From positions 4,161,576-4,225,575 of the forward strand of contig NC_011740.1 of assembly GCF_000026225.1 (NCBI RefSeq): 64,000 nucleotides of DNA. Direction: 5' to 3'. Numbering within the stretch: the stretch's first letter is position 1; the number at the start of each line of letters is the position of its first letter. The notes beneath the pieces are model-generated. The model saw only the letters and a program-made list of their open reading frames with translations. It was not told the origin of the DNA and searched no databases. This DNA comes from Escherichia fergusonii ATCC 35469 (GTDB lineage Bacteria; Pseudomonadota; Gammaproteobacteria; Enterobacterales; Enterobacteriaceae). Below, one piece after another: positions 34,789-49,987 of this stretch. A program made the translations under genes and the position numbers.

Positions 34789-35492
34789 GGTTGCCAGCCT
34801 GTTGAATAATCGTAGTCGAGTACCGACTGAATATCGTCCAGAGCTTCCACCGCCGCGATATGGCGTTGGGCGTTGGCAAACAAGCGTATATCGTGATCCA
34901 TTGTGACGGATTCAAACTGGGCAGCGATTTCGTTGGTTAACTCAGTCAGACCATTATTTTTAGTTTTCCACATTAAACCTGGCGGAATTTTTTTCTCCGC
35001 TCCCATTTTTGTGAGTGAGAGTTGTTGGATGCGGCTGCTTGTATCACTGTGGAAGTAATTGTCGTTGATGATGATGTAGTCGGTAGTGATGGAGTCGCGC
35101 AATGTTTTGATTTCGGCACATTTCGCCTGTTTAGCATCATCAATTGATGGCTGCCATTTTTCGCCATCCCAACGCTCAAAAGTACTGGTAGGGGAAATGA
35201 TGGTGACAGTTTCAGGCAATTGACCCAATTTATTAATAATAATCTGGCTGCCATCAACTTTGTTATAAACAGTTTGGCCTCGATGATCTTCAATAAGTTC
35301 CCATTTATTAATTGACCATATAGAAGTAAAACCTGCAATTTTTTGTGGTGGTGGTGTTAATGTGCAGTAATTCGGTAGTCCAGTGTTTGGTGCTATATAT
35401 ACATTGGACTCACCAATAAATTCTTGTGTGTCTGGTGAAAAATTAAAAACAGATAAAATTTGTGCGTTATCGGAAAAAGTAAAAGTATTCAT
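34785..35492 (-). CDS. Phage tail fiber assembly protein (Tfa / gpG / Mu U-like)
   Basis: 235 aa. Tfa family by recall. Overlaps the tail fiber stop. Confidence 0.75.
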
Positions 35493-37069
35493 GCAAGCCT
35501 CACAATATAATTGAATGCAATGTTTTTAACAGTATTTTCTGTATTGCCAGTGTTATTGATGATAATTGAGTGATTATGTGTACCTAACACAATATTATGT
35601 GTATGACTTCCCAGTGCGATTGTATGTGCATGGGCGCCAATCGTAATACTATGATAATGACTACCAGCAGACTCAGTAGGTTCTCTGTAGTTCTCATCTG
35701 AATTGGGGCTGTTCCATAAAGACGGTCCATCTTTACCTTCTGCACCATCAGTTGGTATTCGGTGTGTATGTTCTCCAGATGTGCTTGTATTTCTACTTCC
35801 ATGATTAAATGAAGCTGTAGTTTTTGTTCCTAAGTCCGTAGAGGTAGATGTTATTGTCCCTAAATTGGTACTAGAAATACTGCCCGTATGGTTATGTGAT
35901 TTAACTCCATCCAGTTCAGTAGATAATATAGCGCGCCCACTGGATGGTTTTCCTTTAATTATCCATCCGCGCATATCAGGAATAACGCCAGATGGATATG
36001 CAATTGCCAGTTTGGGATAGGAGGTTTTATTAAATGTCTGACCAGTCATCAGAGCGTAGCCTGAAGGTACAGAATCAGATGGCCAGGGTATAGGCATCCC
36101 TACAGGACAGCTTTCCGCAGCAATAGCCTTATCCATCGCTGCCTTAACCGCGTTCGGCGTTGCAGCTTCCGTCGTACTGGTGCTGTTGGTCGCATTATTA
36201 AGTTTCACGACCCCTTTTTGTGTCAGCGTACCGTCGGGGATACCTGTTATTTGCCCCCAGGCATGGGTATGGCTGGACGGTGCCGCAGCAATAGCCTTGT
36301 CCATCGCTGCTTTAACAGCACTTGGCGTTGCAGCTTCCGTTGTACTGGTGCTATTTGTTGTGTTGTTAAGTTTAACGACTCCTTTCTGCGTCAGTGTACC
36401 ATCAGGGATACCAGTAATCTGACTCCAGGCATGATTATGACTGGTGGCAGCTTTGCTATTTGCCAGGTCATATGCCGTTTTTACCGCTTTTGGCGTGGCC
36501 GCTTTGGTTTCATCATCGCTATTAGTCGCATTACTCAGCTGCGTAAAACCTTTTTGTGTCAGCGTCGCATCAGGATGATTTCGTGATTGCTGATGTGTTT
36601 TCAACGCGTCATCGACATATTCCCTGGTTGCCACAACGACTGAAGGGTCGATCAAAAGCGTCACCGCATCTGCATTGGTGACTTCCATGACCGCGCGTAT
36701 AACGATTTGCTTACTGGCCCCCGCAGGTAATCGTGGCTTATAGGTTTCAGGGATTTTTCCGATAGCGACCAGCGTGCCGTCGGTATCCAGTAACCCAACT
36801 TCGCGTACATACCAGCCTCCGACTTGTTCGGGAATAATCGCTTCCGCGATAACCCAGGCCGGATTATCTGGCGCAATTTTTAACGTATTGAGCTGACCAC
36901 GCCAGACCTCATGGACTACTTTAGTCTGACTTTCTGTCGGTTCGATATATTTACCATTACCGTCGCCAACTACCATAGTTTGCAGACGGATCTGTTTTTG
37001 CTCCGTCAATGCAGAGGCAATTTTGGCTTTGCCTGCAGTAGTTAATATTGTAAAAAATTCACTTGCCAT
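35489..37069 (-). CDS. Phage tail fiber protein (P2 gpH / Mu S / lambda Stf-like) with tandem repeats and a His-rich C-terminus
   Basis: About 526 aa from [21 protein letters not shown] (SD GGAGGA; the track ORF starts 41 codons earlier, inside gpI). Two 168-bp tandem repeats. C-terminal HxH-rich tip. Confidence 0.8.
36117..36452. repeat. 2 x 168-bp tandem repeat inside the tail-fiber gene, plus a degenerate third unit to ~36620
   Basis: GCAGCAATAGCCTT[A/G]TCCATCGCTGC... recurs at 36117 and 36285. Encodes a ~56-aa repeat ([24 protein letters not shown]...[18 protein letters not shown]). Confidence 0.85.
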
Positions 37070-37803
37070 TATTCCTCCGGATATACAGACATAATTTCGG
37101 TGCTCCAGTATCCTGTGCCGACCTTCATCGGTTGGGATTGTGTAAGGCGATCGGGTTGATAAGGTAGTAGTTGGATATATTCCTCCACACAATAACCCGT
37201 CGCTAAAAATATTCCTGATGACTGGCTGAGGCTTTCTGCAACAGGAGGCAATACTGTAATGACTTCCCCTCCTTGCATGGCGCTGCCAATAACTGGTATT
37301 GGGCTTCGATTAATAAGCCAAATAACAATGCTTTCCAGCTTTGAACGAACATTTTTATATTCATGAATTAATGTGATAAGTGCATTGAATTCATCTTCAT
37401 TTAATCCTTTTTCCTCTAGTGTAATATTTACCTTAAAAAAATAAGCCCTTCCCCCATATTCAAACCATTCTGAAATAGTTCCGGGTAAGGAAAGTATTTC
37501 CAGCACCCGCCGTACCGCCCAAATTGTTCCTTTATATTTATGCAGTTCAATGGCTTGTTTAATTAACTCGCGCTTCTCCCGCTCATCGGTGGTAAATAAC
37601 CAACCTTCCAGCCCCTGAACGTGAAATTGTTCTGCAAGGGCTGGTAATGCCGAAGCATCAACCAGGTCGACCAGATAAACCATCAACGCCGTCAGATCGA
37701 GTTGGGCAAAACGCTCGGCGGCGATGTTTGCCAGAATCGAAAAACGCTCATCGCTGGCAAGCGGCGGCGGTGGCAGCAATTTATCCATCGCTGACTCCGG
37801 CAA
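37069..37803 (-). CDS. Baseplate protein (P2 gpI / Mu gp48-like)
   Basis: 244 aa. Its stop overlaps the tail-fiber start (TAATG). Position follows the J-like gene. Confidence 0.65.
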
Positions 37804-38896
37804 TCGTGACGTCTATTGCAGTGCATTCCGCCCATTCATGCGCCTGCAAAATACGTTTTGTAGGCATATTCAGCGCAACGTCATAGACGCCATCGACCTG
37901 TAACACTTTGATTATCTGGTTTGGCACAATGTCCTGCCCCAGATGTTTCTGCCGCTGTTGCGTCCAGAGGCTAATCGCTTTACGCGCCGCAGCCAGCGTT
38001 GTCTCCTGATCGGCGGTGGTAAACAGCGTTAGCTGAGCACGGATCTCATACGGCACTCGAAGAGCGCATTTCGCACTCACTTTGTCGGTCAGCGGACGTT
38101 TTTTCTCCTTGCTAACCTCCTGTTCGATTTGCGCGAGCAGTTCTGTTCCCGGCAGTCCGTTCAGGGTTAGCGGGTAGATCTCCACGCAGCCTTCTGGCAA
38201 TCCCTCGTCCGGCCCCAGTACTGCAACGTCAATAATCGACTGGCTAACAGAAAGCGTATGAAAGCGGTATGCGCCATAGCTGCCCGCATTACTAAAGCTT
38301 TCTGGTGCCAGTTGGATACGCTGGCGCAATGCGTCATCGCTCTCCTCACCGCAGCCGCCCGTTGACGCAGTCAGGTTAGTTACGTTGATGTCATAATGAC
38401 CCATCCTGTCGACCAGTGCGCTAATTTGTGCAGGCTGCCAGCCGTTGCCCTGTTCACCTGCTGCGAGGCTGGTGGCAGGAACGGCGATATGCAAACTCCT
38501 GGCCGGAAGCAGAACATCTTCATCGGTGGCGAACATCACGCTATCAGAGGCACTGGCCCGCGTCCCCTGGGGAATCAGGATATTGCTGGTATACGCACTG
38601 ACGACCGAAAACTGCAACGTCGTTTTTGCAGGCTGCGCAGGCAAACGGTGAACGCCCACCAACTCCCCTAAATAATCCAGCATTGGCGCGCGGGAATACG
38701 CGACCAGGTTTTGTTTCGCCGCTTCCTGAATGGCGATGCGTACAAGGTTTTCACGATAGGCAAACAGGTCGATGAGCAACCGCTCAGCCTGTGCCGGATA
38801 GAGTTTTTTACCACTGGCATCTTCGTATTGCGCAATCATCTCACTGGTAATTTGCGCAGGATCGCGGTCAATAAAATTGGGTTCGGCTATCGCCAT
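37781..38896 (-). CDS. Baseplate wedge protein (P2 gpJ / Mu gp47-like)
   Basis: 371 aa. Baseplate J family by recall. Confidence 0.7.
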   Translation of the reverse strand: MAIAEPNFIDRDPAQITSEMIAQYEDASGKKLYPAQAERLLIDLFAYRENLVRIAIQEAAKQNLVAYSRAPMLDYLGELVGVHRLPAQPAKTTLQFSVVSAYTSNILIPQGTRASASDSVMFATDEDVLLPARSLHIAVPATSLAAGEQGNGWQPAQISALVDRMGHYDINVTNLTASTGGCGEESDDALRQRIQLAPESFSNAGSYGAYRFHTLSVSQSIIDVAVLGPDEGLPEGCVEIYPLTLNGLPGTELLAQIEQEVSKEKKRPLTDKVSAKCALRVPYEIRAQLTLFTTADQETTLAAARKAISLWTQQRQKHLGQDIVPNQIIKVLQVDGVYDVALNMPTKRILQAHEWAECTAIDVTIAGVSDG

Positions 38897-39246
38897 AACA
38901 CCTCCGTTGAGTTGATAACGCCGTCAGCGGCGCGCCATTGCACACGTAACGTCAGATGTTCGCCGTCGATTACTGGTGTCAGCTTCAGCAACCGACAGCG
39001 CGGTTCCCACTGGCGGATGGCTTCCACCGACTCCCGTACCACATGCGGGATTGCCCGCTCGATGGGGTAATCGATGTAGTGCCACAAGTTGCTGCCAAAC
39101 AGCGGTCTGTGGGGATCACTGCCGCGCGGTGTACGCAGAATGATGTGTATTGCCTGGTGAATATCATCCAGCCCGCAGACGTATTCTTCAGGCCGCTGCA
39201 AGGCCGGTTGCCAGTGCAGCGTTGAGGGTCGTGTTTTTGTGTTCAT
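38887..39246 (-). CDS. Baseplate protein (gp25 / GPW-like)
   Basis: 119 aa. GPW/gp25 family by recall. Confidence 0.7.
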   Translation of the reverse strand: MNTKTRPSTLHWQPALQRPEEYVCGLDDIHQAIHIILRTPRGSDPHRPLFGSNLWHYIDYPIERAIPHVVRESVEAIRQWEPRCRLLKLTPVIDGEHLTLRVQWRAADGVINSTEVLWR

Positions 39247-39344
39247 GAGGGTATTTTCGCCCTGAACGGGCTGTGGCGATATTAAAGCGATTTAGAAAAC
39301 TGATTGATTAAAAAGAGAAAACCCGCCATCAGGCGGGTTAAACG

Positions 39345-40046
39345 TCAGTGTGTATGGTGGTTGGAGTTGCCACCGCTGTCCTGCAATGCGCCGCTGGCCT
39401 GAACGTTGCCGATCACGTTGACATTGCCAGTTATCGTGGCGGCGTTACCGATGCCTCCACTTCCTGCCATCCCGCCAAGCCAGGTGAGTTTTTTCATTAC
39501 CGTGACGTTGCCAGTAAAGGTGCTCATGGGCGCATCTACCGTCACTGCTGCCGCTTTAACATCGACCTTAGTGGCGTCGATGCTGACATCGGTCGCTTTA
39601 ACATCGACAGTATCGGAAGTCACGATGACCTGTTGGGCTTTAATCTCAACGTTGGGTGATGTCAGGCGGGTACTGTCGATAACCTCAATCACGATTTTCT
39701 CGATACCGCCGTTAATCGTCAGCTGGTGCGTGCTGCGGTCATATTCAAACGCTGCGCCATCAGAAAACTGGACGTAACGTTTATCGCGCGAGGCCACAGG
39801 CGCGGTGTCAACCGTAGAATAAACTGCGCCCAGCACCACGCCATCTTCACCGTTATTGTCCAGCAGAACTTCCACTTGCTCGCCCATATCCGGTAGCCAG
39901 TAGTCTTTATTGTCCTGGGAATTGCGTTGAAGTACCGCAAGCCAGTTGCTCTTCAGATTGTCACACTCCGGGAGCGTGACCCGCACCCGAACGCTGGTTT
40001 CGTCAATATCGATGATAATCCCCGTTTGCCGGGTTACTCCTTTCAT
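39345..40046 (-). CDS. Baseplate central spike (P2 gpV / Mu gp45-like)
   Basis: 233 aa. N-terminal OB-fold region, then a beta-helical repeat (VDVKATDVSIDATKVDVKAAAVTVDAP) and a C-terminal apex. Confidence 0.7.
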   Translation of the reverse strand: MKGVTRQTGIIIDIDETSVRVRVTLPECDNLKSNWLAVLQRNSQDNKDYWLPDMGEQVEVLLDNNGEDGVVLGAVYSTVDTAPVASRDKRYVQFSDGAAFEYDRSTHQLTINGGIEKIVIEVIDSTRLTSPNVEIKAQQVIVTSDTVDVKATDVSIDATKVDVKAAAVTVDAPMSTFTGNVTVMKKLTWLGGMAGSGGIGNAATITGNVNVIGNVQASGALQDSGGNSNHHTH

Positions 40047-40055
40047 ATTTCCTCC

Positions 40056-41096
40056 TTACTGGCTGGTCGCTGGCCCGCGCGACACGTCGATTTCAGTGGT
40101 ATAGCCGCTGCGCACAAAACTGTGAGTAGATTTATCAATTAGCCATTGACCGGAAAGCACGCCAAAATCGGTTAGCTCGATTTTATTGCCCGCCGTCAGT
40201 TCCGGGCAGCCCATCATTGTGAGCGTTCCGGTTTGCTGATATTCGTTGTGGCTGTCGAGTGCAGCGTTGGCTTTTGCCTGTGCTGCGCCAACGTCCGTCG
40301 CCCGACTGTTCAGTTTTAGCGTGTCGGCACTGGTGCCGACTCCACGGGCAGACGGTTTTTGCTGGCTGTCGTGGGTGTAGATAACCAGTTCTTTTTTCTT
40401 ACTATTTTGATGCTGTACGGTGGCGTTTTTGTAGATACGGTTAATGGTATCTTTGAAGGTGAAATGCGAAACGTCTTTGCGGTCGATCGTTTTTACCGGT
40501 GCCAGGCAGCGCAGCGTGGGTAAATGTGAAAAAATCAGCTCTTTTGTCGTCACTTTTACGGCATAACCATATTCACTGGCCAGACGTTTGAGAAATCCGA
40601 CATCGGTTTCACCATACTGCGTTACCCGGTCGATGGTGAGCGGCTCGATTTTGCCCACCAGTTTCAGACCGTGCGTTTGGGCGATACGGCTGGCGATAGC
40701 CGAAAGCGTCGTTTCTTCAAAGCCCTGGCTGTTACGGGTGCGCAGCGCCTGATTGACGGAAGTGGCGATGCCATCAATATTTACCGTGGAAGGTGGCGCT
40801 GAAATATCAATTTTATCAATAATATATTGACCACAATCGAGCAGTTTTTCCCCCTGATAACCCATATGCAGCGCCAGCGTATCGCCTTTGCCGGGATACC
40901 ACTCTTTTATCCAGCGTCCATCGGTGTCATCCAGTGTAATCGCGATGGTATCCGACTCGTTTTTAATACTGTCCTGGTAACTGATGCTGGTGACATAAGG
41001 CGTGATGTCATAAGTGATATCTTTATGCCCATACCAGAGGGTAAAAATGGGCGCGAGCGTGGCAAAGACGCCGCCAGTTACGCTTATCTCAGCCAT
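40056..41096 (-). CDS. Baseplate hub / late control protein (P2 gpD / Mu gpP-like)
   Basis: 346 aa. gpD family by recall. Confidence 0.7.
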   Translation of the reverse strand: MAEISVTGGVFATLAPIFTLWYGHKDITYDITPYVTSISYQDSIKNESDTIAITLDDTDGRWIKEWYPGKGDTLALHMGYQGEKLLDCGQYIIDKIDISAPPSTVNIDGIATSVNQALRTRNSQGFEETTLSAIASRIAQTHGLKLVGKIEPLTIDRVTQYGETDVGFLKRLASEYGYAVKVTTKELIFSHLPTLRCLAPVKTIDRKDVSHFTFKDTINRIYKNATVQHQNSKKKELVIYTHDSQQKPSARGVGTSADTLKLNSRATDVGAAQAKANAALDSHNEYQQTGTLTMMGCPELTAGNKIELTDFGVLSGQWLIDKSTHSFVRSGYTTEIDVSRGPATSQ

Positions 41097-41296
41097 GGTG
41101 GGAGCTCCGATACGGTTTTGTTGACGGAAATGACCGGAATGATGAGCTGAATACCGGAAGGTAGTACCGGGTAAATGGCGACATGTGGATTGGCGGCGAT
41201 AATGCGTTCATAAGCCAGCGCATCGCCATAGTAATGCCATGCCAGATTATCCCAGCGTTCGCCGTCGGTGGTGATATGTTCAAGGTATCGCATCAC
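41084..41296 (-). CDS. Tail protein X (LysM-like)
   Basis: 70 aa. P2 gpX-like by recall. Confidence 0.6.
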   Translation of the reverse strand: MMRYLEHITTDGERWDNLAWHYYGDALAYERIIAANPHVAIYPVLPSGIQLIIPVISVNKTVSELPPWLR

Positions 41297-42246
41297 CAGC
41301 TCCTCGTAATGGTTGCGGCAGCAAACTGACTCACTGCTGGAGTGGTTCGTTGTACCGTTGTTCGTGCCTGATCAACCAACGTTGCTGCTTTATCAAACGT
41401 CGTTTCGGCGATGTCGCTGGTAATGTCATCGAAAAGCGCCTGAGCATGGTCAACCAGCGTACTGGCGTCATTGGCGCAGTCCCGGATACCTGGCATGTTA
41501 CCCAGTAAAGCTTTAATCTGCGCCGACAACGCTTTTGGGAGTCCTGCCAGCGTTTGCAGATCCATCGGCTGTATAAACAGGGTTTCGATGGCGTCGATTG
41601 TCTTTTTCAACGACGTAATTATCTTTTCACACTTTTCTTTTAACGCTTTGGCCTCTTTAATCAGTGCTTTCACTTTTGCCACTGTTTTTTTAATATCTTC
41701 AATGGATTGCGCCAGTTCATCGAGCATCTCTTTGGCTTTGCGCATACCTTCTTCAATGGCGTTCAATATCTGATCTAACCAGGACTCCTCCTTATTCGGA
41801 AAATCGCTCGCCTTTTCCTCGATATTAGGCTCCTGGGTGGTAATTGCCGGGGGCAGCAGTGGGTTTTTCGGATCGCCGGTATACTCCTGGAGCGACATTG
41901 TTCCACTTTGGGCAATCACATTGCCCCAGGGATCGGTGTGCTGGTGAGTGGCGGTTAACTCTGTAATTACAAACCAGCCGCGATAATCTCCGTTGCCAAA
42001 CACCAGCGCCATTGCTTTGTGGGCGAGCATGGCTTCACGCAGTCGATTCAGCTCTGTTGTGGGTTGGCAAAACTGGCTGTGCAGGGAAAATTCCAGCGCC
42101 AGCATATCCAGCTTATCGCCAATAAACTGTACGCCAGGTTTGCCTTCAATACGGGCATGTGTGGCGTAATCCACGCCCATTGTGCTCTTAAAGCCATCCC
42201 AGAACGTGACAACTTTAAATTCAATCTCTCCTAAAACGGCATACAT
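41293..42246 (-). CDS. Tail protein (P2 gpU / Mu gpN-like) with a C-terminal coiled-coil extension
   Basis: 317 aa. The N-terminal ~150 aa are gpU-like. Follows the tape-measure gene. Confidence 0.55.
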   Translation of the reverse strand: MYAVLGEIEFKVVTFWDGFKSTMGVDYATHARIEGKPGVQFIGDKLDMLALEFSLHSQFCQPTTELNRLREAMLAHKAMALVFGNGDYRGWFVITELTATHQHTDPWGNVIAQSGTMSLQEYTGDPKNPLLPPAITTQEPNIEEKASDFPNKEESWLDQILNAIEEGMRKAKEMLDELAQSIEDIKKTVAKVKALIKEAKALKEKCEKIITSLKKTIDAIETLFIQPMDLQTLAGLPKALSAQIKALLGNMPGIRDCANDASTLVDHAQALFDDITSDIAETTFDKAATLVDQARTTVQRTTPAVSQFAAATITRSW

Positions 42247-44621
42247 CAGGCATACCCCCGGCGCTGCTGCTGCGCCATTACATCGTTAATCATTCTTTCC
42301 AGTTCGCGTTTACTCATCGTCAACACGTTCTGAATCTCTTTAGTGGTGTTTTGTCCGTTACCCTGCACGGTAATTTGTGGCGAAAAATTCACCTGAACTT
42401 TTCCTGAGGAACGGGAAGGTAGCGTCGCCGCTTTGGTTACGGATTTACCAGGTAAAGAGGCCGATGCTTGTTTGGCGGCTGTATTTTTTGCCGCTGATGC
42501 CGATGGTAGCGTTGTCGTTTTACTGGATGGCGCGAGTTGTTTCCCCACTGGAGGCGTTAAAATCGCACCGGCAACGCCTGGAACAACGGTCGTGGAGGAG
42601 ACGGATGCGGTATTACTCGTGCTTGTAACAGCCGTAGCCGATCCTTCTGTACTAATACCCATCGTGGTTTTTAGCCAGTCCGGTAAGGCGTTTTTGATCT
42701 GGTCAATAATGCCTTTCAGAGCGGGGAAGGCATTTATTATGCCGTCAACCAGACTGCCCAGAAGATTGCTGCCGAACTCGCTAAAACTTGCAGGCATCTC
42801 GACACCAAACCAATTCATCACACTGGAAAAGGCGCTATAGAACAAAGCCAGCGGCGACCAGTCGAGAATCAACCGGCAAATCCCTGCAATACCGCCGTCA
42901 AAGGCCGTGGTGATACGTTGCCAGATGGTCGAAAAGAACCTGGAGATAGGCTCCCAGTTGCGATAAATCAGATAAGCAGCACCCGCAATTGCGGTGATGA
43001 CCAGGCCAATGGGATTCATCAATAAAACCCTACCCAACCAGAAGACGGTCTGACCTACCTGTTTCAGTGCGCCAATCAGGCCACGACCAAGCAGTTGCAT
43101 TAGCCATTTTGCGCCGCCACCCAATGACTTAACCGCTGATAGCATCTTACTTGCCCCGCCTGTGAGCGCCAGACTTGCCTTGACTTTCAGGAAGATATCG
43201 ACCAGACGAATAAACGGCGAGGTGATGAGGTTCGCGCCCAGCTTTAAAACATTCAGCGCACCGTTAAACAGCCAAATCGCCCCGACGATTTTCGCGATGT
43301 TTTGCACCAGTGTCGGGTGCTCACGTAGCCAGGTGCTGAACTGACGAATAACCGGCGTAAGGCTTTGTGCCAGCTCGCCAATCAGCGGCATTAATTGCAA
43401 GCCAATGCTGAGCCATAAATCATTTAACGCCAGCTGTAACGCTTTAGTCTGTTCAATGGGCGAGGCCATTTGCGCAGAAAAGTCGGCATCAATCAGATTC
43501 TTGCTGGTGGCTTGCATGGCAGAGGTTTTTAACTGGCGATATTCCTCCATATTCGCCAGCATAGGTGCCAGGAATTCCACCGTTTGCGCATCGCCGAACA
43601 TTTCGCCCAGATTAAATTGCGTCACCATCGATTGCAGCGCATTGCTGCGAGCAGATAAATCTTCAATCTGCATAGTTCGTTTGAAGGTGTCGAGGATCGC
43701 CGGATTCATCTTCTCAAGCTGCATTTGTACGATATGAGTCATGGCTTCGCTAACACCCATACCGTTTTGCTGATGTTCAAGCAGAGAGCCTTGCAGATCG
43801 ACGCCCTGGCTGGCGAACCAGTTATCGGTCTTTTTCGAAAAGGTGGTTTGCAGAAAGTGGTCGAAATTCTCCGCCGCCGCACTGGCGCTGGCTCCGTTTT
43901 TCATGGCGATCTGCATGGCGGCAGTCAGTTCAGCCATACCTTCCAGACCCTGAGCGCCGGTTTTACCTGCAAATTTGTCTATCCACAGCGTTTGCTCGGC
44001 AACGGCAGGCCCACCGCTTTTGCTAATGCCGTACATCATGTTTTGCGCGACGTGGAAATTTTCTGGCGCAATATTCAGTCGATCATGGGTTGCGAGCGCG
44101 GCATTCGCCCATGTTTCAGCACTTTCGCGCGTGGCGGTGGCAGCTTTGGCGATCTCCGGCATATAACGGTTGAGATCCTGTATCGACGACAAATTGCCTT
44201 CGATCAGCGTTTGGGCTGCGTTCTGTAAGGTGGTCTGATGCTGGTTAAAATCCATGCTCCAGTCGCGCAGATTAAGGCTGAGCGTCTCGCGAGTTGTATC
44301 ATTCATCCCACCTTTGGTCGCCATATTGACCATGTTGTCCTGGAACTCATACGGCAACTTCCAGTCGGGGGCTTCAACATTGAATACTTTGCTAAATTGC
44401 CCGGCAAATGTGTGGGTTTTCTCCATCAGATTAGCGCGGCTGCGGCTATTTTCCTCCAGGCGGAGAGCGGAATCGGCAAGCCGCTGCGTTAGTTTGATAA
44501 CTGTCGCTTGCTGAGTAGAGAGAGCTAACAATGTTCTGGCGTTGAGTGAGCCGTAACGGGCTATTGCCTGCGTCAACGTCTCATTACGCGCCTGAAGCTG
44601 GGTAATAATATCGTTGGCCAA
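42246..44621 (-). CDS. Tail tape measure protein
   Basis: 791 aa. Ala/Gly-rich with a central hydrophobic segment. Position between the chaperone and U-like genes. Confidence 0.8.
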   Translation of the reverse strand: MANDIITQLQARNETLTQAIARYGSLNARTLLALSTQQATVIKLTQRLADSALRLEENSRSRANLMEKTHTFAGQFSKVFNVEAPDWKLPYEFQDNMVNMATKGGMNDTTRETLSLNLRDWSMDFNQHQTTLQNAAQTLIEGNLSSIQDLNRYMPEIAKAATATRESAETWANAALATHDRLNIAPENFHVAQNMMYGISKSGGPAVAEQTLWIDKFAGKTGAQGLEGMAELTAAMQIAMKNGASASAAAENFDHFLQTTFSKKTDNWFASQGVDLQGSLLEHQQNGMGVSEAMTHIVQMQLEKMNPAILDTFKRTMQIEDLSARSNALQSMVTQFNLGEMFGDAQTVEFLAPMLANMEEYRQLKTSAMQATSKNLIDADFSAQMASPIEQTKALQLALNDLWLSIGLQLMPLIGELAQSLTPVIRQFSTWLREHPTLVQNIAKIVGAIWLFNGALNVLKLGANLITSPFIRLVDIFLKVKASLALTGGASKMLSAVKSLGGGAKWLMQLLGRGLIGALKQVGQTVFWLGRVLLMNPIGLVITAIAGAAYLIYRNWEPISRFFSTIWQRITTAFDGGIAGICRLILDWSPLALFYSAFSSVMNWFGVEMPASFSEFGSNLLGSLVDGIINAFPALKGIIDQIKNALPDWLKTTMGISTEGSATAVTSTSNTASVSSTTVVPGVAGAILTPPVGKQLAPSSKTTTLPSASAAKNTAAKQASASLPGKSVTKAATLPSRSSGKVQVNFSPQITVQGNGQNTTKEIQNVLTMSKRELERMINDVMAQQQRRGYA

Positions 44622-44809
44622 AATTGTTTCTCTTATAGATTGGTGATGGCCCGCTGGTTAGTTTTCTGAAAAATGGGCTGGGAAGAAATAAACCTGGCGG
44701 GCTTTGAAGAACTCGCAGACATCAGGTCTGCGAGTCATATTCGATCTTTATTTGAGCGCTGGCTTCATCCAGCCAGTTGCTAAAGTCATCTATGGTGAGC
44801 GCGTCTATC

Positions 44810-45127
44810 TCACTGGGCGGAAAGCGAAACCATCTCGCCAGTAACGCCATCGCTTGCCATAACAGTGGCGGATTCTGTAGCCACGCTAAGCATGGATTGA
44901 AATCGTTTCTGCAATGCCTGGTAATCCAGCAAATCCATTTCAGCTAAATCTTCTGGCACCAGTCCGGTCATTGCCGCCATTAGCGGTTCATCCCATTCTT
45001 CTGGTTTTTCGCTGATCCGGCGCGCGTTGCGCATATCTTTTACTTTCAGGCGACGTAATTGCAGCGTGTCGATATTATTTCCTGCTGCCGACGTAAATGG
45101 AAACTGCAAGATATAATGTTCTTTCAT
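44810..45127 (-). CDS. Tail assembly chaperone (gpE-like); probable frameshift extension (E') into the 44622..44809 gap
   Basis: 105 aa. A ~190-bp unannotated gap before the tape-measure gene is typical of the programmed -1 frameshift product. Confidence 0.6.
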   Translation of the reverse strand: MKEHYILQFPFTSAAGNNIDTLQLRRLKVKDMRNARRISEKPEEWDEPLMAAMTGLVPEDLAEMDLLDYQALQKRFQSMLSVATESATVMASDGVTGEMVSLSAQ

Positions 45128-45177
45128 TTTGTGTCCTTATTTATTTTGCAAAGTTCGGGGCCGTAGCCCCGAATAAC

Positions 45178-45702
45178 TTAGCCACCGATGTTATTGCGAT
45201 AGGTACTTAATTGATCCACACCATTAACCCGGAAAATATTGGCCATATAATCAAGTTCAAGCAGCGTTTCACCATCAACTACTTGTTTAATATAAGTGCA
45301 ACCAAAGGCGCTGCTGAATTCCGGGTTTTCATTCTGTTTAAATGTGCCCAGTGGATTCTTTTTAAACATCACGGTTAAATGTGTCACTAACGCTAATTGA
45401 TTCGCTTTCCCCTGGGAGTTATAGCAATCAATACTGGAGCGGCACTGTAATGCCACCGCCTGCCACGGGTTTGCCGTTTTACGCATGACGTCCTGATAAA
45501 AGGAGTTCCATTTAATTTCGCCCTCCAGTTTATCGAAACCTGCCGGGAGTTCGATTTTGCCGACCATACCCAGTGCCTTATGCTCTTGCATAATTAAACT
45601 GACATCCGGCAATTTAATTTCGGTTGCACGACCTAAAAGGTTATTACCATCGAGATAAATATTGGCGTTGGTAATACGGTTAATTTGAATTTTTCCAGCC
45701 AT
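45178..45702 (-). CDS. Contractile tail tube protein (P2 gpFII / Mu gpM-like)
   Basis: 174 aa, immediately downstream of the sheath gene. Confidence 0.75.
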   Translation of the reverse strand: MAGKIQINRITNANIYLDGNNLLGRATEIKLPDVSLIMQEHKALGMVGKIELPAGFDKLEGEIKWNSFYQDVMRKTANPWQAVALQCRSSIDCYNSQGKANQLALVTHLTVMFKKNPLGTFKQNENPEFSSAFGCTYIKQVVDGETLLELDYMANIFRVNGVDQLSTYRNNIGG

Positions 45703-47132
45703 TAGCTATTGCTCTCCAGAGAGACTAAATATTCAGAAGTAATTTCAGTTTCAAACGTCAGACGTTCCAGCGGCGGTGGCGGGGTGAATTTATAGCTCAG
45801 CAATAAATGCCCGGCGCTGAGTTCGGTCGGTGAATTTCGCGCCGGATCGTACCAGCACTCAAAGCCAAGCAGTGCGCCGTCGGCAATCAGCTTACGGCCC
45901 CAGGTATTTACCGATTCGGTCAGGGCATCAATCAGCGCCTGATTAATCGGCATATCAATATACTGCTGACTGAAATAACGGATTGACTCATTAATTACAT
46001 CGCCTGTCCGGCGGGCGTTTTCAAAGTTACGCATATGGGTCACGGTAGGCCATGCCGCTGTGCGGTTGCCCCACAAGCGCAGACCAGAGCCGTAACTATT
46101 GAAAATAGTGGTAATGCCGTTTTCGTTGAGCTGATTCACTTCGCTTTGAGGATCATCAATCATTGCGGAAAGCGAACGTTCAATACCGGTAATACCCTGA
46201 ATTTCCTGGTTTGAGTTGCTCCACCAGAAACCTTTTTCGAGGTCTACTTTGGCACGTAGCCCGGCAGCGCGCGAAGAGAGCGGTTCGAGAACTTCCTGGT
46301 TAGTGATGCCATCGTAAACTTTGACGTGTGGGTAACATAAACGCGCACGATCAGAGCTGGTGTTGAAGTTGATAGCCCCTTGCGAACCGCGTCCTGCCAA
46401 TACCTGCTGGAATGTCGTCCCAATCGGGGCATCAATGTAGGTAATCGCACCAAGTTTTTCCGCTTGTGCAATCAGCTCGGTAGTTACTGATTTTTGCGTA
46501 CAGAACACGGGAGCAAGCAGGATTTTGGCGTAGAAACCATACAGGTTATAGGTGTCCTGTAGCAGTTTCATCCCCGTGCGATCGCCTGCGGTATTAACGG
46601 CACCGATAATATCGGCTGCGGTGACCTTTGTAGGGTCGCACCAGGAATAATAGGCGCAAACTTTCGCACCAGGAGGAATGTCGGCTCCTGTACGGGTAAT
46701 TATGCCTGTTTGTTCATCTACGCTAAATGCTGCGGTGTTATAGGTTGATGAATTTGATGAAGAGGGCTTTAGAACCACGTTACGCACATTGCGGTGAGCG
46801 AGTTTCGCCTGGTTGTTAGCGTCAAAAGTGATACTCTCATTGCTGATGTTGGAGCCATGTTTTGCCGGATCCAGCACGTTAATCACCACCACCGTACCGG
46901 CACCGTGGTCATAAATCGCCTTCAGTGCCTGCGGGATCGTAAAGTTAGCCTGAGTCGAACCAAACTGCGCAGCATCGCTTTCAGAAAGGCATAATGTTGG
47001 TTTATTTACCGGACCACAGGGGGCCGTACCGATTAAAGCGATGACGGCGGATTTTACCGCTTTAACCGGACGCGGGCCGGTTTCAATTTCAATGGTTTCT
47101 ACACCGTGCAGATAATTAGCTGCCATGTACAA
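45702..47132 (-). CDS. Contractile tail sheath protein (P2 gpFI / Mu gpL-like)
   Basis: 476 aa. Sheath family by recall. Confidence 0.8.
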   Translation of the reverse strand: MYMAANYLHGVETIEIETGPRPVKAVKSAVIALIGTAPCGPVNKPTLCLSESDAAQFGSTQANFTIPQALKAIYDHGAGTVVVINVLDPAKHGSNISNESITFDANNQAKLAHRNVRNVVLKPSSSNSSTYNTAAFSVDEQTGIITRTGADIPPGAKVCAYYSWCDPTKVTAADIIGAVNTAGDRTGMKLLQDTYNLYGFYAKILLAPVFCTQKSVTTELIAQAEKLGAITYIDAPIGTTFQQVLAGRGSQGAINFNTSSDRARLCYPHVKVYDGITNQEVLEPLSSRAAGLRAKVDLEKGFWWSNSNQEIQGITGIERSLSAMIDDPQSEVNQLNENGITTIFNSYGSGLRLWGNRTAAWPTVTHMRNFENARRTGDVINESIRYFSQQYIDMPINQALIDALTESVNTWGRKLIADGALLGFECWYDPARNSPTELSAGHLLLSYKFTPPPPLERLTFETEITSEYLVSLESNS

Positions 47133-47313
47133 TTTCCTCTCCGTTATTTTGTTCTTCCTGAGTGATGACAGGTGTCAGATGATTGCGGGCAATCATGGTC
47201 ATGACCCACTCGTTGTCTTCTGGCAGATCAATTTCACTGTTCGGCCACAATAAGATTTCTTGTCCGTCGGCAAGGGTGACGCCGCTTGCCGGGCCGTTGT
47301 AGATGTATTTCAT
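47116..47313 (-). CDS. Small Mu-like virion/tail protein (DUF2635-like)
   Basis: 65 aa, overlapping neighbours in an operon. Confidence 0.4.
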   Translation of the reverse strand: MKYIYNGPASGVTLADGQEILLWPNSEIDLPEDNEWVMTMIARNHLTPVITQEEQNNGEEIVHGS

Positions 47314-47765
47314 TCAGTTTCCTCGTAATTAACTTCAGTAAGCAGGGTAAGGTCCGTGCTTTCCCGTTTCGCGATAAACAGCGAGCTGGTCGCCATTTCC
47401 AGGATGTAGCGGCAGAAACCACCGCTCTCGCCTGCATTGATTTCTTTTTCAAGCCAAAGAAGACGCTCGCAATCAGGAAGCTGGATCCCCCCCAGTGCGC
47501 TGCGTATGCGGTCCAGTGCGTTTAACGCGTCACAATTTTTGCCAACAATAACGGTGGCAGTTAAACGGAGCGTTTGCTGTTGCACGAGAGCATCACTGCT
47601 TTCAGACATGGCAAATAGAGAACCGCTATAATTAATAATCACTGTAACTTGCTGCGTCTGCGGAATATATTTATGGGCATCAACCGATGAAATAGATACA
47701 TCCATTTCGGGATTCTGTTCACATAATCTGGTCACAACAGAATTCATTACTGATAAAATTTCCAT
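47310..47765 (-). CDS. Mu-like tail completion / neck protein (DUF1834-like)
   Basis: 151 aa, immediately upstream of the sheath gene. Confidence 0.45.
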   Translation of the reverse strand: MEILSVMNSVVTRLCEQNPEMDVSISSVDAHKYIPQTQQVTVIINYSGSLFAMSESSDALVQQQTLRLTATVIVGKNCDALNALDRIRSALGGIQLPDCERLLWLEKEINAGESGGFCRYILEMATSSLFIAKRESTDLTLLTEVNYEETE

Positions 47766-47882
47766 ATAGGGTATCCCTTAATTATCGCTGATTCGTTAAC
47801 GCTCACTTCGTTATCGTTGAAATGTATTCTGACGTAGTGAAGGTGAAGGATCTTTTAATCTGCTTTAGAGAAAAAATTGAAT

Positions 47883-48197
47883 TTAATAGCTACCGCGTTG
47901 TAATAGCTCTATTTTGCTATATAAGGCATCCAGCTTTGCTTCTAATACTGCCTGGCCACGAAGATAATCTTCTCTGCGGACATAATGCAGCGGAAGCTCG
48001 GCACGAAATTCGAGAAATTCTCTTTCCAGTTTCGACCAGTTTGTTTCTGATTCCCGGCGCGCGTTTTCCAGAGATTCAAAACGCTCATTAAGTCTTTTTT
48101 CAATTTGCGCTAACAGCAATTTTCCGGCAGCAAACATTAATCCAACGAAGGAAAGCATAAGGGAGATCACTTCCCAAAAATCGATACTGAGTTTCAT
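47883..48197 (-). CDS. Spanin-like lysis protein (N-terminal TM plus coiled coil)
   Basis: 104 aa. TM helix ISLMLSFVGLMFAAGKLLL, then a charged coiled coil. Confidence 0.45.
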   Translation of the reverse strand: MKLSIDFWEVISLMLSFVGLMFAAGKLLLAQIEKRLNERFESLENARRESETNWSKLEREFLEFRAELPLHYVRREDYLRGQAVLEAKLDALYSKIELLQRGSY

Positions 48198-48209: not shown

Positions 48210-48815
48210 TTAGTGAAGACAGCTTGCCTGTCCCCAGAGTAAATAGCGGGCGGCGTGTTGATAGAGAATCATCTTTGGATAGCGACGATTTTCTCGCCAG
48301 TTCGTGGCGCTGCGCCCGGCGTTGACTTGCTCAACATGACCAAACCAGAGAGTGGCATCTAGCCCTTTGGATACAGCCAGTTTTTTATCCCGATTAACCC
48401 ATCCCTGACCGCCGTTATAGGCGCTTAGGGTAAACGCCATACGCTGACAATCATTTTTCGCAGAGATGTTTTTCCACAAATACTGGTCATATTGCACCAG
48501 CGCGCGAATCGCCCAGGTTGGGTTATACGGTTTGTTTTCACGCAACTGCGGATACAACTGGCTTACCCATGTCGCTGTAGCAGGCATGAATTGCGCCATA
48601 CCTTGTGCGCCAACGGGGGAACGTACCATTGGCTGCCAGGCGGACTCCTGGTGTAATTGCCCGGCAAAGTCGGCCACTGGGGCATTCAGTCCCCAGACTT
48701 CTCGAGCGGTACGAATTAGTTCGTTTCGCCATGCCAGAGAGGCTCTCGGCGGTTCAGAGGCGTTGAGTGGGAAAAGAACGAAAATAATCATAGACGCGAT
48801 ATATTTCAGCCACAT
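48210..48815 (-). CDS. Lytic transglycosylase (SLT-domain endolysin) with a signal peptide / signal-anchor-release sequence
   Basis: About 201 aa from MWLKYIASMIIFVLFPL. SLT core ES...GAQGMAQFMP...AYNGG. Confidence 0.75.
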   Translation of the reverse strand: MWLKYIASMIIFVLFPLNASEPPRASLAWRNELIRTAREVWGLNAPVADFAGQLHQESAWQPMVRSPVGAQGMAQFMPATATWVSQLYPQLRENKPYNPTWAIRALVQYDQYLWKNISAKNDCQRMAFTLSAYNGGQGWVNRDKKLAVSKGLDATLWFGHVEQVNAGRSATNWRENRRYPKMILYQHAARYLLWGQASCLH

Positions 48816-48817
48816 CA

Positions 48818-49105
48818 CTATAGCCCTAACGCGACGGAAAGGCAGACGGCAGCAACGATGATAGCCCGGCGAATCATTGCCGCCGCGCAGCAACGCGGTT
48901 CCTTCCAGGGGCAAAAAGAGTCAGGCCGTGCCCAGGGGAACAAACTGCGATCGAGCCAGTATCCCAGCACCGCGGAAAGCGAAACCAGGCTTAGTTTATA
49001 AATGACGACCGGGATTTGTGCTGAAGAGGTCCAGCCGATCACGACAAACAGCGCGACGGAAGCGACCAGCCAGCCGGAAAGCCGGGGAAATGTGATTTTT
49101 TTCAT
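48818..49105 (-). CDS. Holin-like membrane protein, first gene of the lysis/tail operon
   Basis: 95 aa with 2-3 TM segments. SD AGGAGA. Abuts the transglycosylase start. Confidence 0.5.
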   Translation of the reverse strand: MKKITFPRLSGWLVASVALFVVIGWTSSAQIPVVIYKLSLVSLSAVLGYWLDRSLFPWARPDSFCPWKEPRCCAAAMIRRAIIVAAVCLSVALGL

Positions 49106-49401
49106 ACGATATCTCCTGATAAATGAGCGTTTAGTGTCGTCAGAACCCGCCAGTGAAGAATGAAAAAAGCTTTAATAAATAAGTTTAAAAAATAGATTCT
49201 CTATAAATGAACATGCCCGCTAATAAATCCACCCGTCAATAAAAGAGCAAAAGGTGACCTGGCGAACAAGTGCATCATTATGCAGGGGAAAGATGATGGT
49301 GGATCGTAGGAATATTCGATAGTTATTTGATTTTTAAAGTTTGTTTAAGAAAGTCAGCGACTGTGAGGGAAACGATCTTTTTACACTACAAGTAAAAATA
49401 A

Positions 49402-49421
49402 TACTGTATGTGTATACAGTA
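49402..49421. promoter_or_regulatory. LexA (SOS) box
   Basis: TACTGTATGTGTATACAGTA has the CTGT-N8-ACAG half-sites and an AT-rich centre, 18/20 to consensus TACTGTATATATATACAGTA. It lies in the divergent region between the tail operon and the Mor-like gene. A TTGACA -35-like hexamer is at 49443. Confidence 0.75.
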
Positions 49422-49642
49422 TCGTGTAAAATGATACACCTGTTGACAAGAAACATAACGCAAACAATATATCTATTTCATGAATTTATGGCGTTCATTA
49501 ATATTAAAAATTTATATTTTTGTTAATTGTTTATTTGTTTGTTGAATGTATTGAGTAGCAGTAATGACAACTGCTTAGCGTATATCCGTGGTTTTACACG
49601 CATCGGGTCTTATTCAGGATGCAAGATATATGGAGATGAAAA

Positions 49643-49987
49643 ATGATACGAAAATCAAAAGAGATGGCCCGGACACCGGAGATCATTAACGACCTGGCTT
49701 TTCATGCATCGCAAGTTCTGATTGAAAGCATCAATCTCGACAGTTCATCGGCAGAAAATGTGGGCTTTGCCATTGCCGACCGAATGATGCGTAACTGGGG
49801 CGGACAAAGCATTTATTTCCCTAAGGGGATCTCCGGACGAGCATCGGAGCGTGACTACCAAATCTATAGCGAGTGCGATGGGCGCAACTACGCCGAATTA
49901 GCGAAGAAATATAATCTGACGCTGCAATGGATTTATAAGATTGTGAAGCGGGTGCACGCAGAAAAACAGCAGCAACGTCGGATGTAA
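49643..49987 (+). CDS. Mor/C-family (Mu middle/late operon) transcriptional activator
   Basis: 114 aa with C-terminal HTH NYAELAKKYNLTLQWIYKIVKRV. Mor family by recall. SD GGAGA. Confidence 0.65.
   Translation: MIRKSKEMARTPEIINDLAFHASQVLIESINLDSSSAENVGFAIADRMMRNWGGQSIYFPKGISGRASERDYQIYSECDGRNYAELAKKYNLTLQWIYKIVKRVHAEKQQQRRM

What the first reader, a model, noticed from the sequence alone, without database searches (positions are those of the whole stretch)
49106..49642. Near-consensus LexA box in the divergent control region between the tail/lysis operon and the Mor-like activator
TACTGTATGTGTATACAGTA at 49402..49421 carries both CTGT/ACAG half-sites with correct 8-bp spacing and an alternating AT centre (18/20 to consensus). 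It sits about 220 bp upstream of the Mor-like gene and about 300 bp upstream of the first lysis gene, next to a TTGACA hexamer. This predicts a two-tier cascade: LexA cleavage leads to Mor expression, which activates the lysis and tail operon. That is the same logic as PrtN/PrtR-controlled pyocins but is built from Mu parts.
Basis: seen in the sequence. Interest (0 to 1): 0.7.

Follow-up and report, generated by a model that had tools for sequence, protein, structure and literature searches.

The report
SOS (LexA) switch for E. coli tailocin
A very strong, evolutionarily conserved binding site for the DNA-damage repressor LexA lies between a Mu Mor-type activator gene and the lysis/tail genes of an uncharacterised phage-tail bacteriocin in E. 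coli, so this weapon is probably switched on directly by the host SOS response without a repressor of its own.

Summary
TACTGTATGTGTATACAGTA lies at 49402-49421, is unique in the window, and scores above my recalled recA and sulA operators. It sits in the 537-bp gap between a holin/endolysin/contractile-tail cluster (minus strand) and a Mor-family gene (plus strand). This headless, integrase-less element is inserted beside lysC in about 4% of complete E. coli genomes.

A box at the same place occurs in every orthologous locus that keeps the lysis/tail cluster in Salmonella, Dryocola, Phytobacter and Superficieibacter. Only LexA-tolerant positions vary, while the surrounding DNA is about 51-60% identical. 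It is absent from Mu-like prophage mor genes and from Pectobacterium rdgA-rdgB.

The cited TTGACA is E. coli-specific. The best positionally conserved promoter over the box points towards the holin. A weaker one (-10 TAAAAT) points towards mor. Published Salmonella RNA-seq shows the mor orthologue induced 4.1-fold by nalidixic acid, but no lysis or tail gene induced.

Most likely LexA directly represses mor, and Mor then activates two late promoters that carry a shared conserved motif. This is a new wiring variant of known SOS-to-activator bacteriocin cascades (RdgA/RdgB, PrtR/PrtN). It is untested experimentally.

The parts
49402..49421 (.). LexA operator (SOS box) TACTGTATGTGTATACAGTA
   Evidence: Conserved in orthologous loci of 5 genera. 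15 of 20 positions are invariant against a 23% background, P~6e-7.
49427..49432 (+). Candidate -10 (TAAAAT) of a mor-ward promoter. Part of the invariant TGTAAAATG (49425-49433). The box would then cover about -38 to -19, over a weak -35 (CTGTAT), with A-tracts upstream.
   Evidence: 8 of 9 invariant. About 6.5 bits in the rough PWM. Retained as TATAAAATGG in E. hormaechei, where the box is lost. Prediction only.
49403..49430 (-). Candidate holin-ward promoter: -35 TTTACA (49430-49425), 16-nt spacer, -10 TACAGT (49408-49403, the left arm of the box)
   Evidence: The only positionally conserved sigma70-like prediction across genera, 8.1-9.0 bits. Prediction only. The Salmonella RNA-seq argues against it as the main output.
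49643..49987 (+). mor-like gene (114 aa), a Mor/C-family transcription activator and homologue of Pectobacterium RdgB
   Evidence: PF08765 E=4e-38 and phrog_532. Matches Mu Mor 1RR7 at E=3e-8 and Mu C. About 50% identical to the Pectobacterium Mor-family protein next to an S24 repressor.
49170..49192 (-). Invariant AT-rich island TTTTTTAAACTTATTTATTAAAG upstream of the holin: candidate Mor-binding site of late promoter 1
   Evidence: The most conserved 20-mer of the intergenic region. 18 of 23 invariant, P~1e-8. Shares its layout with the second island.
49133..49138 (-). Candidate -10 of late promoter 1 (GACACT; GATACT or CATACT in other genera), with a poor -35 (ATTCTT)
   Evidence: Alignment. 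The architecture expected of Mor/C-dependent promoters (bioRxiv 10.1101/2025.05.02.651988; PMC4390567 abstract). Inference.
48818..49105 (-). Holin (95 aa)
   Evidence: PF13272 E=2e-27 and phrog_1528
48210..48815 (-). SLT-domain endolysin (RefSeq start; the maximal ORF runs to 48914)
   Evidence: PF01464 and phrog_669; RefSeq annotation of strain A37
47883..48197 (-). Membrane protein of the lysis cassette (spanin-like, 104 aa)
   Evidence: phrog_462; annotated 'membrane protein'
47853..47876 (-). Second conserved island TTTTTTCTCTAAAGCAGATTAAAA upstream of the Gp37/tail genes: candidate Mor site of late promoter 2
   Evidence: In Salmonella, Phytobacter and Superficieibacter a terminator-like hairpin precedes it.
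34333..47765 (-). Contractile-tail module: Gp37, sheath, tube, chaperone, tape measure, gpU/X/D-like, baseplate V/W/J/I, tail fibre, fibre-assembly protein
   Evidence: RefSeq annotation. No capsid, terminase, integrase, replication or repressor genes.

Best explanation
The 20-mer is a functional, high-affinity LexA operator. It is the only repressor input of a chromosomally domesticated R-type tailocin inserted next to lysC.

In undamaged cells a LexA dimer sits on the operator and blocks RNA polymerase at the promoter or promoters that overlap it. The principal target is a mor-ward promoter whose -10 is the invariant TAAAAT five bases downstream of the box; the box then covers the -35 and spacer.

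DNA damage activates RecA, LexA cleaves itself, and mor is transcribed with a leader of about 200 nt. The Mor-family activator then binds the two conserved AT-rich islands (layout TTTTTT, [T/C]TAAAG, ATTAAA(A)G) upstream of the holin and of the Gp37/tail genes. It recruits sigma70 RNA polymerase to promoters with poor -35 elements, giving tail particles and then lysis.

What is shown: the operator's sequence quality and its cross-genus conservation; the gene identities; the absence of a dedicated repressor; the two conserved islands; and modest induction of the Salmonella mor orthologue by nalidixic acid.

What is inferred: LexA binding; which promoter is controlled; Mor binding to the islands; and particle production.
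For: 1. Operator quality. The box is unique in 64 kb with 0 of 100 shuffles matching. It scores 25.9 bits against recA at 22.9 and sulA at 22.6 in an approximate PWM.

2. Conservation. Exactly one strong box lies 221-230 bp upstream of mor (291 bp in S. electus, which has an insertion). This holds in E. coli (3 haplotypes), Salmonella (7 loci, 4 variants), Dryocola, Phytobacter and Superficieibacter (3 loci), although the intergenic DNA is only 51-60% identical. 15 of 20 positions are invariant against a 23% background (P~6e-7). All variation falls at positions 1, 2, 7, 9, 11 and 12, which LexA tolerates.

3. Link to the lysis/tail cluster. All 7 Salmonella loci with holin and tail genes have the box. 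All 6 orphan-mor remnants have lost the box and the cluster together.

4. No alternative repressor. No HTH, S24 or cI-like gene is present in the cluster. By contrast, Pectobacterium homologues have an adjacent S24 repressor and no box, and Mu-like prophages place mor in the early operon with no box.

5. Expression. STM14_5073 is 348 bp, on the + strand, 21 kb from yjbD. It goes from 49 to 205 TPM (4.1-fold) with nalidixic acid (PMC8072944 Dataset S1).

6. Second tier. The two most conserved non-RBS islands precede the two operon starts and share a composite motif found nowhere else in the window. The protein is a Mor/C-family member. That family activates promoters with a dyad upstream of a poor -35 (bioRxiv 10.1101/2025.05.02.651988).
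Against: - The mor-ward promoter is weak by consensus (-35 CTGTAT, about 6.5 bits). The better conserved prediction points the other way.
- The box is about 220 bp from the mor ATG, which is unusually far. tisB at 236 bp is a precedent in PMC8072944 Table 1.
- The Salmonella induction is modest, basal expression is not zero (49 TPM), and the data set is unspecific (1091 genes up). The authors did not list the gene among their 48 SOS genes.
- No lysis or tail gene is induced in that experiment, so Mor-dependent activation is not shown.
- E. coli has an extra, non-conserved TTGACA downstream of the box. It could give LexA-independent transcription.
- E. hormaechei has lost the box yet keeps intact genes.
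- There are no binding data.
Confidence: 0.6

Rival explanations
1. The operator primarily controls the minus-strand promoter TTTACA-16-TACAGT. LexA would then gate the holin/endolysin/tail operon directly, as in colicin operons, through a leader of about 290 nt. Mor would be regulated otherwise, or would act only as an amplifier. A combined version has one operator shutting two back-to-back overlapping divergent promoters, forming a coherent feed-forward loop.
For: This is the only sigma70-like promoter conserved in position across genera: 8.1-9.0 bits, and the top minus-strand hit in 4 taxa. Its -10 lies inside the box and its -35 is the invariant TGTAAA. The ISKox3 insertion splits exactly this promoter.
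Against: - TACAGT is dictated by the LexA half-site itself, so its 'conservation' is not independent evidence.
- In S. Typhimurium, SOS induction raises mor but none of the 31 lysis/tail genes.
- The invariant ATG after TGTAAA is unexplained by a -35 alone.
- The spacing from the box to mor is more constant (221-230) than the spacing to the holin (296-347).
- An unrepressed Mor would be dangerous, and no other repressor is encoded.
Confidence: 0.2
2. The operator controls an unannotated small gene or sRNA in the intergenic region (a tisB/istR-like or dinQ-like SOS toxin module) rather than mor or the holin operon.
For: tisB also has its box about 236 bp from the ATG (PMC8072944 Table 1). In the window a 21-codon hydrophobic ORF starts at 49480 (read).
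Against: That ORF is not conserved even within E. coli: haplotype L040 has GTG and an indel there. It is absent in Salmonella. There is no Rfam hit and no conserved RNA structure. Outside the listed islands the intergenic region is 51-60% identical.
Confidence: 0.07
3. The palindrome is a non-functional relic or a chance AT-rich palindrome, for example an insertion hot spot, with no regulatory role today.
For: The element looks decayed in some lineages: the box is lost in E. hormaechei, split by ISKox3 in about 11 E. coli genomes (one with a frameshifted sheath gene), and deleted with the cluster in many Salmonella. The tail genes are silent in Salmonella RNA-seq.
Against: Both half-sites are invariant across 5 genera while the flanks have diverged to 51-60% identity, and substitutions fall only at LexA-tolerant positions. 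0 of 100 shuffles matched. Its score exceeds bona fide operators.
Confidence: 0.05

Closest known systems
RdgA/RdgB control of pectin lyase, carotovoricin and lysis in Pectobacterium (Liu et al. 1994 and McEvoy et al. 1992, as cited in PMC13566846 and PMC7843439)
   Same: - A DNA-damage signal leads to expression of a small Mor-family activator, which switches on bacteriocin and lysis genes.
- The E. coli protein is about 50% identical to the Pectobacterium Mor-family protein.
- I found that protein immediately downstream of an HTH_3 + Peptidase_S24 gene in P. versatile and P. carotovorum.
- PMC13566846 describes carotovoricin as a Mu-type tailocin with no repressor inside its own cluster.
   Different: Pectobacterium uses a dedicated autocleavable S24 repressor (RdgA), has no LexA box near rdgB (best 8.9-11.5 bits), and keeps the regulators away from the tail cluster. 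Here there is no S24 gene; a host LexA operator lies upstream of mor, and mor abuts the lysis/tail cluster. That RdgB resembles Mu Mor is my recollection of Liu et al. 1994, which I could not read. The Pfam assignment of the Pectobacterium protein is a tool result.
[quoted passage not shown]
   Same: Two tiers: an SOS-sensitive repressor, then an activator, then a lysis and tail operon carrying repeated activator boxes.
   Different: PrtR is a dedicated LexA-like repressor and PrtN is not a Mor-family protein. Here the host LexA itself is the predicted repressor.
Colicin operons and LexA-controlled prophage switches (coliphage 186 tum; Gifsy dinI-type antirepressors) - established knowledge; the Gifsy genes are listed in PMC8072944
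   Same: Host LexA binds directly to a mobile-element promoter, so that a lethal function fires only during SOS.
   Different: Colicin boxes lie directly on the toxin/lysis operon promoter, and the phage examples control antirepressors. Here the predicted target is a positive activator of the Mor/C family.
Phage Mu Mor/C regulatory cascade
   Same: The same protein family (PF08765; matches to 1RR7 and Mu C). The candidate target promoters have a recognisable -10, a poor -35 and a conserved upstream element.
   Different: In Mu-like prophages mor is the last gene of the early operon (gemA-mor, or transposase-MuB-mor) and is governed by the phage repressor, with no LexA box. Here a single activator replaces the Mor-then-C relay, and it is free-standing.

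Membership tests
Gammaproteobacterial LexA operator (SOS box) | CTGT-N8-ACAG palindrome with an AT-rich centre, and a score within the range of proven operators | tested here: met
   18 of 20 to consensus. 25.9 bits, above recA and sulA, in a PWM built from recalled operators. Unique in the window.
Gammaproteobacterial LexA operator (SOS box) | Conserved at the orthologous position in related genomes, with substitutions confined to tolerated positions | tested here: met
   5 genera and 14 or more loci. 15 of 20 invariant, P~6e-7.
Gammaproteobacterial LexA operator (SOS box) | Overlaps or adjoins core promoter elements of the regulated gene | tested here: inconclusive
   Two predicted promoters overlap it, one on each strand. 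No mapped transcription start is available.
Gammaproteobacterial LexA operator (SOS box) | The downstream gene is induced by DNA damage in a LexA- and RecA-dependent way | tested here: inconclusive
   The Salmonella orthologue STM14_5073 is up 4.1-fold with nalidixic acid. There is no lexA or recA control, the data set is unspecific, and the authors did not list the gene.
Gammaproteobacterial LexA operator (SOS box) | LexA binds the site (EMSA, footprint or ChIP) | not testable with these tools
   No binding data were found in the held literature.
Mor/C family transcription activators (PF08765) | Sequence membership: N-terminal dimerisation region, linker and C-terminal HTH | tested here: met
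   PF08765 E=4e-38, covering positions 2-104 of the 107-position model. Mu Mor 1RR7 at E=3e-8 and Mu C at 8e-5.
Mor/C family transcription activators (PF08765) | Target promoters have a usable -10, a poor -35 and a dyad or two-site element just upstream of the -35 | tested here: inconclusive
   Two conserved islands with a shared motif lie upstream of the holin and of Gp37. With the -10 I propose, the holin island lies at about -44 to -67, further upstream than Mu's -43.5. No transcription start is known.
R-type tailocin (phage tail-like bacteriocin) | A complete contractile-tail gene set and a lysis cassette, without capsid, packaging, replication or integration genes | tested here: met
   The cluster is bounded by host genes (an NTase gene, and zeta toxin or lysC).
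R-type tailocin (phage tail-like bacteriocin) | Produces tail particles that kill related strains | not testable with these tools
   No report on this element was found. The ST131 'tailocin' of PMC9205054 is a different, P2-like prophage.
Dedicated-repressor SOS cascades (PrtR/PrtN, RdgA/RdgB) | An element-encoded autocleavable S24/LexA-like repressor controls the activator gene | tested here: not met
   No HTH or Peptidase_S24 protein is encoded in or beside the cluster. The Pectobacterium homologues do have one.

The most novel reading that the evidence does not exclude
One LexA dimer on a single operator shuts two back-to-back, physically overlapping divergent promoters: the -10 of the mor-ward promoter overlaps the -35 of the holin-ward promoter. 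This would create a coherent feed-forward loop. LexA represses mor and also a basal lysis/tail promoter, and Mor activates the late promoters. Together these would give a delay or threshold before suicidal lysis. On this reading, host LexA has replaced the element's own repressor during domestication of a Mu/P2-hybrid tail that has sat beside lysC since before the Escherichia, Salmonella, Phytobacter and Superficieibacter lineages diverged.
Probability: 0.2. Interest if true: 0.65.

Novelty: new variant of a known kind. Interest (0 to 1): 0.5.

Why it matters
SOS-triggered bacteriocin and tailocin production is well known, so the principle is not new. Three things would be new.

First, it would show that a Mor/C-family activator can be wired straight to host LexA. 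That would be a third solution alongside Mu's early operon and Pectobacterium's RdgA.

Second, it gives a concrete, testable regulatory model for a tailocin that is present in about 4% of complete E. coli genomes and in many Salmonella serovars. I found no functional study of this element in the held literature.

Third, it poses a puzzle. In S. Typhimurium the activator gene is induced but the tail genes are not. That may point to an extra threshold, to silencing, or to decay.

If the element is active, it bears on strain competition in the gut and on antibiotic-induced lysis, because quinolones induce the SOS response.

Tried and rejected
- TTGACA (49443-49448) as the controlled -35: rejected. 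It is not conserved, reads TTGATA in the ST648 haplotype, and lacks a good -10.
- A small hydrophobic ORF at 49480 as a tisB-like target: rejected, because it is not conserved.
- A conserved leader RNA structure or a known RNA family: none found.
- The ST131 'tailocin' paper (PMC9205054): a different, P2-like prophage.
- The kosakonicin and BceTMilo papers: no mention of Mor, LexA or SOS regulation.
- Searches on the LT2 locus tags STM4210-4219: only motility-screen and gene-list mentions, nothing on induction.
- Reading Liu et al. 1994 directly: the paper is not held.
- Looking for the box in the supplementary lists of PMC8072944: the list of FIMO hits is not held, so I cannot say why STM14_5073 is missing from their Table 1.
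- 'Island ii' (49327-49352) as a general conserved element: it is conserved only among E. coli, Salmonella, Dryocola and Phytobacter (5 of 26 invariant over six taxa). It remains unexplained.
- I did not run structure prediction or fold searches, because the sequence assignment of Mor was unambiguous.

Full report
**1. The observation.**

The sequence TACTGTATGTGTATACAGTA is at 49402-49421, exactly as reported. It differs from the palindromic LexA consensus TACTG(TA)5CAGTA only at the central positions 9 and 11. It is the only site in the 64-kb window within three mismatches of that consensus, and no dinucleotide shuffle out of 100 produced one. The bare core CTGT-N8-ACAG is not significant on its own: 2 were found against 0.64 expected.

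I built a position weight matrix from about 23 E. coli K-12 operators. These were recalled from the Lewis 1994 and Fernandez de Henestrosa 2000 compilations, so the matrix is approximate. With it the site scores 25.9 bits, above recA (22.9) and sulA (22.6). The next-best site in the window scores 16.3 bits.

**2. The setting.**

The window is E. coli chromosome. The 537-bp region 49106-49642 separates two divergent units.

- On the minus strand lie a holin (PF13272), an SLT endolysin and a small membrane protein. They are followed by Gp37, sheath, tube, chaperone, tape measure, gpU/X/D-like proteins, baseplate V/W/J/I, a tail fibre and a fibre-assembly protein.
- On the plus strand lies a 114-aa Mor-family protein. 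It hits PF08765 at E=4e-38 and resembles Mu Mor 1RR7 and Mu C.

There are no capsid, terminase, replication, integrase or repressor genes. The element is therefore an R-type tailocin-like cluster, not a prophage. It lies between a nucleotidyltransferase gene and lysC. It is present in 197 of 5426 complete E. coli genomes, always on the chromosome.

The Salmonella LT2 genes STM4212-STM4219 are the orthologous cluster at the same site, and STM4219 is the Mor gene.

**3. Comparative evidence for the operator.**

I collected orthologous loci from one genome per species and from the assembly index. Every locus that retains the holin/tail cluster carries exactly one strong box. These are E. coli (three haplotypes), Salmonella (seven loci, four box variants), Dryocola, Phytobacter and Superficieibacter (three loci). 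The box is 221-230 bp upstream of the mor start codon, or 291 bp in S. electus, which has a 62-bp insertion.

The intergenic DNA is only 51-60% identical to E. coli. In a six-taxon alignment, 15 of the 20 box positions are invariant against a background of 23% (hypergeometric P about 6e-7). Across all loci the variable positions are 1, 2, 7, 9, 11 and 12, which are the ones LexA tolerates. Within E. coli and within Salmonella the polymorphisms also fall in the central spacer. This is the signature of selection for LexA binding rather than of general conservation.

The box is absent in three kinds of locus:

- Thirteen Pasteurellaceae Mor loci and a gemA-mor contig, which look like Mu-type prophages.
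- A Hafnia transposase-MuB-mor locus.
- The Pectobacterium loci.

**4. Natural variants.**

- Salmonella has a second configuration in which the tail cluster is gone. Homology to the intact locus begins only about 135 bp upstream of mor, and the box is lost together with the cluster.
- Enterobacter hormaechei keeps intact genes but has lost the left half-site. The holin-proximal island is also degraded there.
- In about 11 E. coli genomes the region is interrupted. In strain CREC-544 an ISL3-family element (ISKox3) sits in the centre of the box with an 8-bp duplication, ATGTGTAT, and the sheath gene of that strain is frameshifted.

**5. Which promoter does the box control?**

The conserved neighbour of the box is TGTAAAATG at 49425-49433, with 8 of 9 positions invariant. 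It can be read in two ways.

- On the minus strand it supplies a -35, TTTACA. This lies 16 nt from TACAGT, the left arm of the box, and forms a promoter that points at the holin. It is the only sigma70-like prediction conserved in position across genera. However, its -10 is dictated by the LexA half-site, so that part of the conservation is not independent.
- On the plus strand it supplies a -10, TAAAAT. The box then covers the spacer and a weak -35 (CTGTAT), and A-tracts lie upstream in all taxa. This promoter points at mor and scores lower (about 6.5 bits).

Three observations favour mor as the main output.

- No other repressor is encoded, and an unrepressed activator of a holin operon would be lethal.
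- The spacing from the box to mor is more constant than the spacing from the box to the holin.
- Published RNA-seq from S. Typhimurium 14028 supports it (next paragraph).

In that RNA-seq (nalidixic acid versus LB; PMC8072944, Dataset S1) the gene STM14_5073 rises from 49 to 205 TPM, a 4.1-fold increase. It is on the plus strand, is 348 bp long, and lies 21 kb beyond yjbD (STM14_5041). None of STM14_5042-5072 appears among genes changed two-fold or more. The stored table covers all up-regulated genes.

There are caveats. That experiment changes more than 2000 genes and has no lexA control. The authors did not list this gene among their 48 SOS genes. I could not verify the 14028 sequence itself, although every Salmonella locus with the holin that I examined has the box.

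**6. The second tier.**

The most conserved 20-mer of the whole intergenic region is CTTTAATAAATAAGTTTAAA at 49170-49189. It lies 65-85 bp upstream of the holin start. Downstream of it are a conserved -10-like element (GACACT, or GATACT/CATACT in other genera) and a poor -35.

A second invariant island lies in the 117-bp gap before the Gp37/tail genes, at 47853-47876. In Salmonella, Phytobacter and Superficieibacter a terminator-like hairpin precedes it.

Read on the transcribed strand, the two islands share the layout TTTTTT, then [T/C]TAAAG, then ATTAAA(A)G. The composite pattern occurs only at these two places in the window. That pattern was derived from the two sites themselves, so this shows specificity, not independent significance.

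This is the architecture expected for Mor/C-dependent promoters: a usable -10, a non-optimal -35, and a two-part element of about 26 bp just upstream (bioRxiv 10.1101/2025.05.02.651988; PMC4390567 abstract). With my proposed -10, however, the holin island would lie about one helical turn further upstream than in Mu. Binding by the Mor-like protein is an inference. The Salmonella RNA-seq gives no sign that a four-fold rise in mor mRNA turns the late genes on.

**7. Comparison with known systems.**

A profile search found Mor-family proteins about 50% identical in Pectobacterium versatile, P. carotovorum, P. brasiliense and P. aroidearum. In the two loci I fetched, the gene lies just downstream of a 244-aa HTH_3 + Peptidase_S24 gene, in a separate transcription unit.

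This matches the published rdgA-rdgB pair. That pair mediates RecA-dependent induction of pectin lyase, carotovoricin and lysis (Liu et al. 1994 and McEvoy et al. 1992, as cited in PMC13566846 and PMC7843439). That RdgB resembles Mu Mor is my recollection of the 1994 abstract, which I could not read. PMC13566846 calls carotovoricin a Mu-type tailocin without a repressor in its own cluster. There is no LexA box near the Pectobacterium gene.

Mor-family activators therefore occur in three wirings:

- At the end of the Mu early operon, under the phage repressor.
- Behind a dedicated S24 repressor (RdgA).
- Here, behind a host LexA operator.

The PrtR/PrtN pyocin system shares the two-tier logic but neither protein family. 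Colicins and the 186 tum / Gifsy antirepressor promoters share direct LexA control but not the activator tier.

**8. Verdict.**

The site is very probably a working LexA operator (about 0.85). That its main target is mor is likely but unproven (about 0.65). The full cascade to tail production is plausible (about 0.5).

I rate it a new variant of a known kind, of moderate interest.

Noticed in passing
window 49409-49416; locus L038 4311-5642 (E. coli CREC-544): In about 11 of 197 carrier genomes the holin-mor region is interrupted at the box. In CREC-544 an ISL3-family ISKox3 element is inserted in the centre of the LexA box with an 8-bp target duplication, ATGTGTAT. This separates the half-sites by about 1.3 kb. 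The sheath gene of that strain is annotated as frameshifted.
   Followed up: partly
window 50159-51094 (minus strand): A 311-aa zeta-toxin-domain protein (PF06414, phrog_25145) lies between mor and lysC, with no obvious antitoxin ORF upstream. The gene is in 1434 of 5426 E. coli genomes, where it normally sits next to the RlaP-type nucleotidyltransferase gene. The tailocin-plus-mor block therefore looks like an insertion between those two genes. Strain A37 has the tailocin but not the zeta gene. No complete RefSeq genome matched this segment at 97% identity or more.
   Followed up: partly
loci L026-L028, L030, L032, L037 (Salmonella): There is a second Salmonella configuration. An identical Mor protein sits next to lysC, but the tail cluster is replaced by a hexapeptide-repeat gene and a 242-aa ORF. 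Homology to the intact locus starts about 135 bp upstream of mor, so this is an orphan mor without a LexA box.
   Followed up: partly
loci L020/L021 3700-3790 (Enterobacter hormaechei): This orthologous cluster has intact genes, but the LexA box is degenerate (AAGC...GCAG) and the holin-proximal island is partly degraded. TATAAAATGG is retained.
   Followed up: partly
window 33961-33980: The second-best LexA-like site in the window is TCCTGGCCAATTATACAGTA (16.3 bits, comparable to weak operators in my approximate PWM). It lies inside the unknown 242-aa ORF 33391-34119 at the far end of the cluster. That ORF is absent from strain A37.
   Followed up: no
window 47766-47882 versus L019 2912-3070, L003 and L004/L005: Salmonella, Phytobacter and Superficieibacter have a GC-rich hairpin plus T-run (terminator-like) between the lysis cassette and the second conserved island. 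The E. coli window lacks it. Read-through from the lysis genes into the tail genes may therefore differ between genera.
   Followed up: no
window 49327-49352: TTGATTTTTAAAGTTTGTTTAAGAAAG is conserved in E. coli, Salmonella, Dryocola and Phytobacter but not in Superficieibacter. On the plus strand it resembles the putative Mor-site layout (TTTTT, TAAAG, TTTAAG). It might be an autoregulatory site, but its distance from either candidate promoter does not fit.
   Followed up: partly
window 49973-49987: Homology to the tailocin-bearing RefSeq genomes ends at 49973, 14 nt before the mor stop codon. The window's Mor is 114 aa, against 115 aa elsewhere. The junction with the zeta-toxin segment therefore seems to lie within the last codons of mor.
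   Followed up: no
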